Part shown: positions 22,201 to 25,200 of the stretch, in pieces | Layout of the letters: the number at the start of each line of letters is the position of its first letter | Numbering within the stretch: position 1 is the stretch's first letter | NCBI GenBank assembly: GCA_051294375.1 | Contig: CM119268.1 | Coordinates: forward strand, 3,499,856-3,563,855 | Source: Paraspadella gotoi | Taxonomy: Eukaryota > Animalia > Chaetognatha | DNA: 64,000 nucleotides | Reading direction: 5' to 3' | Notes under the pieces: generated by a model | Seen by the model: the letters and a program-made list of their open reading frames with translations, nothing else | Told to the model about the DNA's origin: nothing | Databases searched by the model: none | Position numbers and translations under genes: made by a program

Positions 22201-25200
22201 GTCCCTGAGCTTCGGATCAGGCTGTAACACCATGTTACAGGCGGGTTAAGCGCCCCGTCCCTCTTAACTGCCAGACGACCACCGGGCTAGAACCCCGGAC
22301 CTTTGGGTTGGGAGGCGAATGACTTGCCTCCGACACCAATGGCCGCCGATGAACTGTTATTATTTTATTGCTGATAAGCGTCCCTATTTGCAGCTACATT
22401 TGTAAATCATAGAATTCATGATGACTTGCAAAAAAACGAGAAAATAAACTTTTTCAATGATTCATGGTTTAAATTTAAATACGGTCGTCACTGACGACAG
22501 CGAGGATTTTTCTTAAAACCTATCCTCGTGGGGTAAAATTTTACAATTAGAAATTTAGATCCTAAAAGAAATTTAGAACCTATTAATAAGCTATTATTAT
22601 TAATTATTATTATTATTAATAGCTATTATGAGTAGAAATTAAGTATCAATCACGATTCACGAGCCTGCACCTGCACCTGCAGGCACTCAGCCTCCTACAG
22701 CGATTTAGTGGCGAATGAAAATTGAAATCGAAAGTCATCCACCAATCAGACGACGGCGTCGGCTCAACAATTATGAGAAATCAACAAATATGAGAAATCA
22801 TTTTTCTCGGAATTGTTTCTGCAGATTGAGCCATTTCTGATAAATGCTGCGTCGGCGGTAATCAAAGCGTTGACAGCGGTGGCACATATCAATCCTCTTC
22901 GCTCGATTCTCTCATATCAGTCAGTCCGCGATTTGTTACTTACGATTGACGAAGACTATTTTCAATTCCTTTTCACATCACATCGGCTTTCGTCAGATTA
23001 AGGTTAGTTGGGTTAGTTTTTAATTCATTGAAAATGTTACGTAATCTTTTAAACCGTTTTTCCGATGTGGTATATCATTTTTTTATTATTATTATTATTA
23101 TTCTCCAGATCTGCCCATTTTCATCATGTCCGACAAAAAGAAAACAACCCCGATGACCTCGGACGCGGCCGCCCGCATCCAAAGCACCGAGGCCAAGAAC
23201 TCGGACACCGGCGGCGTCGCCTCTGGCGGTTTTGCCTCCAGGTGAGTGTGGTTCGCGTTTTGGCCGAGTCGCGATCGGTTAAGTTATAAAGATATCCCGT
23301 TGAATTTTAAATCCCCTTTAATTTTAAAGTTATAAAGATATCCCGTTAAATTTTTAATAGATTTGAATTTGTCTTTTTAATTTTTTCTCTTGTACTTTGA
23401 ACCGAAGCATTTTTTTTTTGTCGCCTAAGTTTTGATTCGTTTATTTTGTTTACTTATCGAAAAAAAAAATCAAGATTTTTCATCGCATATTTATTTACAA
23501 CTCTAAAAACGTTCCTAAATTTTGCAACATTCCCCTGCACCGTTGCGTTATTGATTCATATTCGATTACTGTCATAATGATCATAAATTGTTATTTATTA
23601 ATGAATAATCTCTATACATTCAGGGCTCAGTCGAGTTCCGACAAGAACATCAACACCGGCAAGACGACCCATCAGGGCGGGAAGTGACGCGGGCCACGAC
23701 GGGCGGGCGAACCACGGCATGGCATGGACGACATGGAAATGTCACCGACGATTTTGCCTTCGTAAAAGTTGTGATCTGTTTAAAAAACTTATCTTTCGTT
23801 CGTTTTGAGGATTTTTTCTGCATTCATTTTATCAGATATTATTTAGAGCGACGTACTTATTTTCTCAGATTTTTGTTGAAATTTTTAACTTTTCTGCAGC
23901 ATCGTATCATTTAAAATAAATATGAAAGAGTGCAATCCTCTCTTCTAGAATACTGTGTTTTTATTCACGTTTCTAATTAGGTATGATTGTATGCATTATT
24001 TAACGAAAAAGTAAACGAAGAAAACCTTGTTCTCCCTTTAATAATGTTCGAAAAGAGAAATTTAATACGATAATGAGTTAGCGAGGGTAAACGGCACAGA
24101 AAAGAAGTTATAGATTTTAACAAACGAGCAGGATAACATGAAAGTTGCCGTTTAACAACGATTCCTAGCATTTAAGGAAAAAATCGTGGGTTTCCAAGGG
24201 TGAAATCAAGACGAGAATGATTGAAAGTCCGGCTAAATTTTATTTTCGCCGACCGCGATTTGGGCGGCTTTTGAAAAATTACTTAAAAATGTTTATTTTT
24301 AAACAAAAAATTTTAAAAAAATATTATTTAATTACCCTAACTCAAATCCTTTTTAACCTTAACCAGTAACTACCCTTAACCCTTCCCTAAACCCGGTTGG
24401 CGAAAGAAAAAGCACACCATCACGGTGGCAAGCACAAGTGAAACTGGCTGCGATGGTTGAAGACCTAAACATACGTATCGGCCCAGTGATGTGATGTGAT
24501 GTGATTCTATAAAAACTTTTAATTTAGTTTCATTCGGTTTTTTTTTACATACTTAATCGGGTACAATTTCTGCCCATTGCTTTATTTTTTTCTTGTTGAA
24601 TTGTTTTCATTCTCGAGTTATTGGTTTGTTTTTTGCTTTTTTCAAAATTATGTCGAAGTGCAATCCTTTGTTTCTGGAATGAAAATTCTAGTTTTTACTA
24701 GTTTGACCTGTTGAATTCGTCGAAACAGCCCCACGCGCCGGTTTGTGACAGACCCTTGTAAATGTTCCCGCAAGACTTGTAGTCCATCTGAAGGAAAGGA
24801 GAAGGAAATTTGACGTTTTAGTTTACTTCAGTAGTTTCTATTAGCTTTCTTTCTTTCTATTAGCTTTCTTTCTAATAGCTTGAGATTCAAAGAAAATTGT
24901 GGCTTCGTTTATCGATAAACTAATAAAAGTATTATCGTAATCTCTCGCGTTCTTACTTGTTCGGAACAGTTGAATACGTATACCATGATCCCTAGCGCTC
25001 GACCCAGATCTTTAGTTGTCTCCGTTTTTCCGGTTCCTGTCAAAAACCCAGGGACATTTGTTAAGCGACAAGACTATGATCGATACATCGTACTCTTTTA
25101 ATAATAGCTTAGGAAAGAGTTTTATTCATTCGATCGGCGTTAAAGTAGTTTTAATTTTCTTTTTTTTTATTTTATTTATTTATTTTTTGTTTTTTTTTAA

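What the first reader, a model, noticed from the sequence alone, without database searches (positions are those of the whole stretch)
22740..23920. Hidden spliced 59-aa SMP/LEA-like microprotein gene inside a dynein intron
Seen: a compact transcription unit missed by the ORF track, with CCAAT, TCAGT, a 5' UTR intron, two coding exons and AATAAA. It encodes [47 protein letters not shown]... Knowledge, from memory: the pattern MTxxAAxRIQSxxAK...GxFAxRAQxxxxKN typifies tiny fungal and bacterial proteins annotated as SMP (seed maturation protein, LEA D-34, Pfam PF04927). Inference: an animal stress-protective microprotein of patchy distribution, possibly acquired horizontally and since intronised.
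Basis: partly seen in the sequence, partly recalled or inferred. Interest (0 to 1): 0.8.

Follow-up and report, generated by a model that had tools for sequence, protein, structure and literature searches.

The report
Spliced seed-protein-like microgene inside dynein intron
A spliced, polyadenylated gene for a 59-amino-acid protein lies on the opposite strand inside an intron of a ciliary dynein gene of an animal (likely an arthropod); it is a one-repeat relative of plant seed-maturation proteins, its closest relatives are in other animals, and it likely helps protect cells under stress.

Summary
The gene is real. Transcript contigs from 5 of 7 runs laid (3 studies) carry the predicted 23241/23624 splice. 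One also shows the 5' UTR intron, a poly(A) tail at 24029 and the dynein mRNA splicing across the whole locus. The 59-aa product scores 59 bits on a profile of prokaryotic relatives (shuffles at most 8.6). Its closest relatives straddle Pfam's SMP (PF04927) cut-off, so the family call holds, by transitive evidence. The promoter is unproven: that contig runs 92 nt past the TCAGT. Horizontal transfer is not supported. The nearest relatives (69-74% identical, sharing a C-terminal HQGGK-type tail) include an acoel worm gene and animal-like contigs, and coral and tardigrade SMP genes exist. Codon use matches the host dynein. The tree is too short to exclude an old bacterial origin. A stress-protective role is inferred from Artemia AfrLEA6 and is untested. 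One paper names Artemia as the only anhydrobiotic animal expressing this group; these records point to a wider animal range. This scan found the family before, in archaea beside antiviral genes. Here bacterial copies also often sit near defence genes or upstream of a conserved ankyrin protein.

The parts
22825..23002 (+). 5' untranslated exon part seen in a transcript contig; its true 5' end is unknown
   Evidence: X1 contig positions 341-518, 0 differences
22742..22746 (+). CCAAT motif; no evidence of function
   Evidence: 1.1 per kb on this strand
22917..22921 (+). TCAGT initiator-like motif (consensus recalled); lies inside X1's contig, start site unproven
23003..23108 (+). 5' UTR intron, 106 nt, GT..AG
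   Evidence: sequence; contig numbering fits the join
23109..23241 (+). exon: 17 nt UTR, then coding from ATG 23126 (38 codons + 2 nt)
23242..23623 (+). phase-2 coding intron, 382 nt, GT..AG
   Evidence: joint in 5 of 7 runs laid
23624..24029 (+). last exon: coding to TGA at 23685-23687, then 3' UTR to the poly(A) site at 24029
23915..23920 (+). AATAAA, possible proximal signal
   Evidence: X2, X3, X4 contigs (one study) end at 23938-23948, no tail listed
24010..24015 (+). AGTAAA, likely signal for the poly(A) site at 24029
   Evidence: 26 A's behind 24029 in X1; genome there is not A-rich
22045..24707 (-). host intron (2663 nt) of an outer-arm beta-type axonemal dynein heavy chain gene (DNAH9/17-like), within AAA1

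Best explanation
This is a spliced, polyadenylated gene nested antisense in a dynein intron, and its 59-aa product, a single seed-maturation-protein (SMP)-like repeat, likely acts as a small stress-protective protein. Shown: gene structure, transcript, nesting, homology. Computed: 6.0 kDa, pI 9.9, GRAVY -1.06, on the disordered side of the charge-hydropathy line. Predicted, on the 72%-identical acoel protein: two helices joined by a glycine-rich linker. Inferred: it is largely unfolded when dilute, forms the helix pair on water loss, crowding or binding, and coats proteins, nucleic acid or membranes or joins condensates, as reported for the Artemia SMP protein AfrLEA6. Inferred origin: inherited within animals as part of a tail-bearing subfamily, and lodged in this intron without a functional tie to dynein.
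For: Splice joint in 5 of 7 runs, poly(A) tail, dynein joint across the locus. 59.3 bits on a profile of 76 prokaryotic members; reversed -0.9; best of 998 reported shuffles 8.6. Of 12 tail-group relatives, 3 pass the PF04927 cut-off of 22 bits (22.1, 33.4, 37.0), 7 hit it below cut-off and 2 do not hit it. ESM Atlas top three clusters carry PF04927 in 28-36% of members, score 0.83-0.85, a lead only. Nearest by BLAST among 256 fetched proteins: P0300 71%, P0003 74%, acoel P0301 72% (79-82 bits), against 56 bits for the best named bacterium. Tail group 96/96 in the tree with tail columns. L006 lies beside an adhesion-GPCR-like gene (7tm_2, Lectin_C), L001 beside a GST whose best solved matches include sigma-class GSTs. 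Model: helices 11-25 and 35-48, mean pLDDT 82.6. Composition. AfrLEA6 forms condensates and raises viscosity on drying (PMC11061232, passages); five Artemia group 6 genes rise under high salinity (PMC8406910, passages). Four other plus-strand protein-coding genes or tRNA genes share dynein introns here.
Against: No stress or tissue data for this gene. The spliced protein itself was not scanned against Pfam; exon A alone and exon B alone gave no hit. It fails the LEAPdb class 11 motif and length (159-278 aa; PMC3353982, passages), and that paper calls the class probably folded and hydrophobic, unlike this protein. Relatives occur in coral and an acoel, not known to me as drying-tolerant (recalled). 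The core motif is kept from bacteria to animals more tightly than a generic hydrophilin would need, and bacterial copies sit near defence genes and a conserved ankyrin gene. The tail group was defined by its tail; without it the group splits in three, though monophyly is not rejected (p = 0.46). In the core alone a Kistimonas protein ties with the acoel at 70%.
Confidence: 0.5

Rival explanations
1. The repeat is a specific binding module: the helix pair would bind one partner protein or nucleic acid, in bacteria as a small component of defence or stress loci and in animals in a related regulatory or immune role.
For: In 22-24 of 80 GTDB loci, depending on the query, across about ten proteobacterial families, a homologous gene lies just downstream on the same strand. 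Many of these carry ankyrin repeats. It is 754-843 aa of open frame and gave one match per genome in 5 of 5 genomes checked. 24 of 63 loci scanned have a PADLOC hit at E <= 1e-10 (124 of 159 ORFs), including type I RM, Lamassu, Druantia and two viperins. R-I-Q, G, F and A-Q positions are near invariant.
Against: No background control for the PADLOC count; 6 of the 24 are Vibrio near-copies and about 6 are generic or weak hits. Small mobile genes gather in defence islands without being defence genes (established knowledge). No such partner is seen near the animal gene, and the tail group is absent from the prokaryotic loci.
Confidence: 0.22
2. One reading: the gene entered this animal lineage by horizontal transfer from a bacterium or fungus and later gained introns.
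For: The family is scattered over at least ten prokaryotic phyla; several top bacterial hits are Endozoicomonadaceae, associates of marine invertebrates (recalled). L001 and L004 have unbroken coding regions while this gene has a coding intron. The data do not reject a clade of this protein with prokaryotes (p = 0.25).
Against: Nearest relatives are animal or eukaryotic and share a tail seen in 0 of 80 prokaryotic loci; an acoel query found no close prokaryotic relative. SMP-positive genes stand on long contigs of coral (21.5 Mb), acoel (86 Mb) and tardigrade (3.7 Mb). GC3 matches the host. Any transfer would have to be old, or repeated.
Confidence: 0.12
3. The protein serves cilia or sperm and is nested in the dynein gene because the two are co-regulated.
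For: It lies in an axonemal dynein intron, and both transcripts are present in run X1.
Against: Opposite strand; unrelated genes (BTB, RING, a low-complexity protein, tRNAs) sit in neighbouring introns too. The annotated neighbours of L001 and L006 are a GST and an adhesion-GPCR-like gene, and the family exists in organisms without cilia.
Confidence: 0.08
4. An artefact: contaminant DNA, a chance frame or an untranslated RNA.
For: NCBI flags the Idotea baltica relative P0009 as UNVERIFIED_CONTAM. No peptide or ribosome data. One X1 difference changes an amino acid (K6R).
Against: The gene lies inside a host intron whose flanking exons are spliced in the same run; intronic pieces match X1 with 0 differences (164 and 232 nt); GC3 0.83; strong profile score.
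Confidence: 0.03

Closest known systems
SMP / seed maturation protein repeat, Pfam PF04927 (LEA D-34; group 6 of Tunnacliffe and Wise; LEAPdb class 11; maize Rab28)
   Same: Close relatives match positions about 16-58 of the 59-position model; two-helix repeat.
   Different: One repeat in 59 aa against 159-278 aa; lacks the class 11 motifs; basic and very hydrophilic; has an HQGGK-type tail.
AfrLEA6 of Artemia franciscana
   Same: Animal PF04927-group protein (PMC8946055, passages); the only tested animal model for function.
   Different: AfrLEA6 is a longer multi-domain protein (recalled; the two primary papers were not held) of anhydrobiotic cysts. Its sequence was not compared here.
XP_075239690.1, 59 aa, Convolutriloba macropyga (P0301), named 'putative uncharacterized protein DDB_G0289245'
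   Same: 72% identical over 54 aa, same length and tail; PF04927 33.4 bits.
   Different: Uncharacterised; its gene structure was not seen.
XP_066029665.1 Pocillopora verrucosa (P0284) and XP_055357602.1 Paramacrobiotus metropolitanus (P0008)
   Same: Animal proteins above the PF04927 cut-off (30.7 and 33.6 bits).
   Different: Two repeats in 104 aa and five matched stretches in 523 aa; no HQGGK tail; elsewhere in the tree.
Prokaryotic single-repeat SMP-like microproteins (e.g. Kistimonas, Aliivibrio, Vibrio, Bathyarchaeota)
   Same: Same 40-residue core, up to 70% identical.
   Different: Mostly 39-54 aa, no tail; often upstream of an ankyrin gene or near defence genes.

Membership tests
Pfam PF04927 (SMP) | Score of 22 bits or more on the Pfam model | tested here: inconclusive
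   The spliced protein was not scanned; each exon alone gave no hit. Tail-group relatives: 3 of 12 pass, 7 of 12 hit below cut-off, 2 of 12 no hit.
Pfam PF04927 (SMP) | Homology to proteins that pass the cut-off | tested here: met
   72% to P0301 (33.4 bits); 59.3 bits on a prokaryote-only profile against 8.6 for the best shuffle.
LEAPdb class 11 / plant LEA D-34 | Motif T.GEAL[EH]A or PGGVA | tested here: not met
   Neither is in the translation (read by eye); motif from PMC3353982. A TGGVA near-match lies in the linker.
LEAPdb class 11 / plant LEA D-34 | Length 159-278 aa, relatively hydrophobic | tested here: not met
   59 aa, GRAVY -1.06.
LEA proteins / hydrophilins in general | High hydrophilicity, glycine-rich, predicted disorder (criteria recalled) | tested here: met
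   GRAVY -1.06, Gly 11.9%, normalised hydropathy 0.38 below the boundary 0.44. The acoel relative's model is confidently helical, which fits conditional folding or a folded state.
LEA proteins / hydrophilins in general | Induced by water stress or in a dormant stage | not testable with these tools
   Runs are coded contigs without conditions.
LEA proteins / hydrophilins in general | Protects proteins, membranes or cells on drying | not testable with these tools
   Needs a bench assay.
Horizontally transferred gene | Nests inside a donor clade with support | tested here: inconclusive
   Groups with the tail group (96/96); a prokaryotic clade is not rejected (p = 0.25); 40-54 columns only.
Horizontally transferred gene | Best relatives are non-animal | tested here: not met
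   Best named relatives are from an acoel and an isopod assembly (the latter flagged as contaminant).
Horizontally transferred gene | Base use unlike the host (recent transfer) | tested here: not met
   GC3 0.83 against 0.78 over 835 dynein codons.
Nested antisense gene | Wholly inside one intron of a host gene on the other strand | tested here: met
   All mapped parts (22825-24029) lie in the 22045-24707 intron; the unmapped 340 nt of the 5' end could lie outside.

The most novel reading that the evidence does not exclude
The SMP repeat is not a seed or desiccation speciality but an ancient two-helix binding module. In bacteria and archaea it works as a microprotein with defence loci and a conserved ankyrin protein, and animals keep an overlooked, tail-bearing single-repeat subfamily, of which this gene is a spliced member, with a specific partner in stress or immune signalling.
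Probability: 0.12. Interest if true: 0.8.

Novelty: new member of a known kind. Interest (0 to 1): 0.45.

Why it matters
Janis et al. 2022 (PMC8946055, passages) name Artemia as the one exception among investigated anhydrobiotic animals in expressing PF04927-group LEA proteins. This gene, with the acoel, coral and tardigrade records, indicates a wider animal range, mostly as microproteins that gene finders and the Pfam cut-off miss. A one-repeat natural protein is also the minimal unit for testing what the SMP repeat does. The gene's existence is ordinary in that databases already hold unstudied members.

Tried and rejected
No own genome was held, so copy number in the host is unknown. The look-up of sequencing runs listed no holder on record as RNA; the splice joints and poly(A) come from runs marked 'RNA?'. 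Contig depths were not used to rank genes. Trimer prediction for the acoel relative: no answer, score 0.02; no evidence either way. Foldseek on the model: no match at E <= 0.001; PDB sequence search with alignment A1: 0 hits; NCBIfam: none for P0001, P0301, P0341. Viral contigs: no relative. X6 and X7 gave no orthologue at 80%. The 340-nt 5' piece was not found in the window. Position 22825 follows TGCAG but had 7 of 12 pyrimidines, under my preset 8, so an upstream exon, trans-splicing, a chimera or another allele all stay open. An inverted similarity between the two ends of the dynein intron was reached by 3 of 500 shuffles and is low-complexity: dropped. Rfam on 21900-24800: only a sub-threshold snR78 match. 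Host placement: all 8 species-named dynein hits, plus one, are arthropods, but only 141-2000 aa proteins were searched and identities do not separate insects, barnacle and horseshoe crab, so 'arthropod' is likely, not shown. Tree rows left out: every second deduplicated GTDB locus, 4 loci my pattern missed, and most unnamed hits (74 rows kept). Literature: 10 searches listed no paper on single-repeat SMP microproteins in animals or bacteria; subscription papers are largely missing and no supplements were read, so gene tables in coral, acoel or tardigrade papers may list them.

Full report
Observation. The sequence holds an ATG at 23126, a coding exon to 23241, a 382-nt GT..AG intron and a second exon 23624-23687, giving 59 codons and a stop. 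A 106-nt GT..AG intron lies at 23003-23108. Seven public runs were listed (all marked 'RNA?', kept as contigs) and all seven were laid. The 382-nt joint is in X1, X2, X3, X5 and X4, from 3 studies; X6 and X7, other organisms, do not cover the gene. X1's 1083-nt contig also covers 22825-23002, fits the UTR join by its numbering, and ends in 26 A's behind 24029, where the genome is not A-rich. Differences from the window: one in the 3' UTR (X2-X5) and K6R listed for X1.

CCAAT, TCAGT and AATAAA are present but occur 0.7-1.9 times per kb on this strand. X1's contig extends 92 nt upstream of the TCAGT and then carries 340 nt whose joint-side 30 letters are not in the window. The joint follows TGCAG but missed my preset acceptor test. 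Contigs cannot give a start site, so the promoter stays open. The shown poly(A) site is 24029; three contigs of one study end 18-28 nt behind the AATAAA, a weak hint of a second site.

Host. tblastn with long homologues maps dynein exons on the minus strand from about 45000 to 2000. Pfam gives the dynein AAA_6 family, and the best solved matches are DNAH17 and DNAH9. An X1 contig splices 24708 to 22044 across the whole microgene, so nesting is shown. All species-named dynein hits are arthropods, but the search left out full-length dyneins and identities do not resolve further: likely an arthropod.

Family. Exons alone do not hit Pfam, and the spliced protein was not scanned. A 63-aa relative (P0003) found 162 representatives at E <= 0.001, and an alignment found 1988 clusters among 7986 candidates scored. 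The window protein scores 59.3 bits on a profile built only from 76 prokaryotic members, against -0.9 reversed and 8.6 for the best of 998 reported shuffles. Of 12 closest, tail-bearing relatives 3 pass the PF04927 cut-off, 7 fall below it and 2 do not hit it. It is thus an SMP-like single repeat near the edge of the model. It fails the plant class 11 motif and length (PMC3353982, passages).

Distribution and origin. Named members include an acoel (59 aa, 72% identical, 86-Mb contig), a coral, a tardigrade, an isopod assembly entry flagged as contaminant, fungi, green algae, bacteria and archaea. The best BLAST matches (79-82 bits) share a C-terminal tail; the best named bacterium scores 56. 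The tail pattern is in 11 of 270 fetched proteins and 3 of 160 loci, none among the 80 GTDB loci; those loci were found with a bacterial alignment, and an acoel query found no GTDB relative. The three tail loci look eukaryotic: L006 beside an adhesion-GPCR-like gene, L001 beside a GST, L004 with microsatellites and an acceptor-like site before the ATG. With the tail, the group is a starred clade (96/96); this is partly circular, and without the tail it splits, though monophyly is not rejected (p = 0.46). A clade with prokaryotes is not rejected either (p = 0.25), and in the core a Kistimonas protein ties with the acoel at 70%. GC3 is 0.83 against 0.78 for dynein. Reading: a recent transfer into this lineage is unlikely; an old one cannot be judged on 40-54 columns.

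Mechanism. The protein is 6.0 kDa, pI 9.9, GRAVY -1.06, 12% glycine, on the disordered side of the charge-hydropathy line, with two moderately amphipathic stretches. The acoel relative, folded with 81 sequences, gives helices 11-25 and 35-48 around a glycine linker (pLDDT 82.6), with no fold match. The tested animal model is AfrLEA6, which forms condensates and raises viscosity on drying (PMC11061232, passages); a review table lists its SMP domain as the driving part, though it expands the abbreviation differently (PMC10423696, passages). Five Artemia group 6 genes rise under high salinity (PMC8406910, passages). I commit to a LEA-like protective role at 0.5; every step after homology is inferred.

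Rival from the prokaryotes. Here 24 of 63 GTDB loci scanned have a PADLOC hit (124 of 159 ORFs), with no background control, 6 near-copies and about 6 generic or weak hits. Separately, 22-24 of 80 loci, all proteobacterial, have a homologous gene just downstream on the same strand, often with ankyrin repeats, with no named family for its N-terminal part. This suggests a specific partner in bacteria (0.22 as the family's role) but says nothing direct about the animal gene.

Novelty. PMC8946055 (passages) calls Artemia the only exception among investigated anhydrobiotic animals for group 6 (PF04927). PMC7649794 mentions it only in its references. The two primary AfrLEA6 papers were not held; other papers were seen as listings only, and no supplements were read. 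Ten searches listed no paper on single-repeat animal members. Databases, however, already hold them as uncharacterised proteins. Verdict: a real, unannotated new member of a known family, with a modest correction to the known animal range; interest 0.45.

Noticed in passing
L081-L160 (e.g. L161:1305-3768): In 22-24 of 80 GTDB loci the SMP-like microgene lies just upstream of a conserved, unnamed protein of about 750-840 aa with ankyrin repeats in its second half, across about ten proteobacterial families. A candidate two-gene system.
   Followed up: partly
L081-L143: 24 of 63 loci have a PADLOC hit within 2 kb (type I RM, Lamassu, Druantia, viperin, PDC-S31); no background control.
   Followed up: partly
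window 25235-27932 (+): A second nested antisense gene in the next dynein intron: spliced 25235/25589 region, a 430-aa T/S/N-rich then acidic frame without a Pfam family, next exon at 27912.
   Followed up: partly
window 31779-32959 (+) and 40215-41297 (+): A BTB/POZ (KCTD-like) gene and a coiled-coil RING-finger gene also lie antisense in dynein introns.
   Followed up: no
window 22146-22358: A repeat that hundreds of X1 contigs match at very high summed depth, single in this window; likely a SINE-type element; no tRNA or Rfam match.
   Followed up: partly
window 27244-27315 and 29059-29130 (+): Two tRNA-Glu(TTC) genes in a dynein intron; a doubtful tRNA-Arg call at 32813-32909 overlaps the BTB gene.
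   Followed up: no
P0009: The Idotea baltica relative (69% identical) is flagged UNVERIFIED_CONTAM by NCBI; it may be a real animal gene of the tail group.
   Followed up: no
L003, L005, L010, L011, L023, L029 and others: A set of metagenome loci with low ORF coverage carries coral-type members (like P0284), one locus with two copies: possibly a small coral gene family.
   Followed up: no
window 22825: X1's contig continues for 340 nt upstream with sequence not found in the window: upstream exon, trans-splice, chimera or allele.
   Followed up: partly
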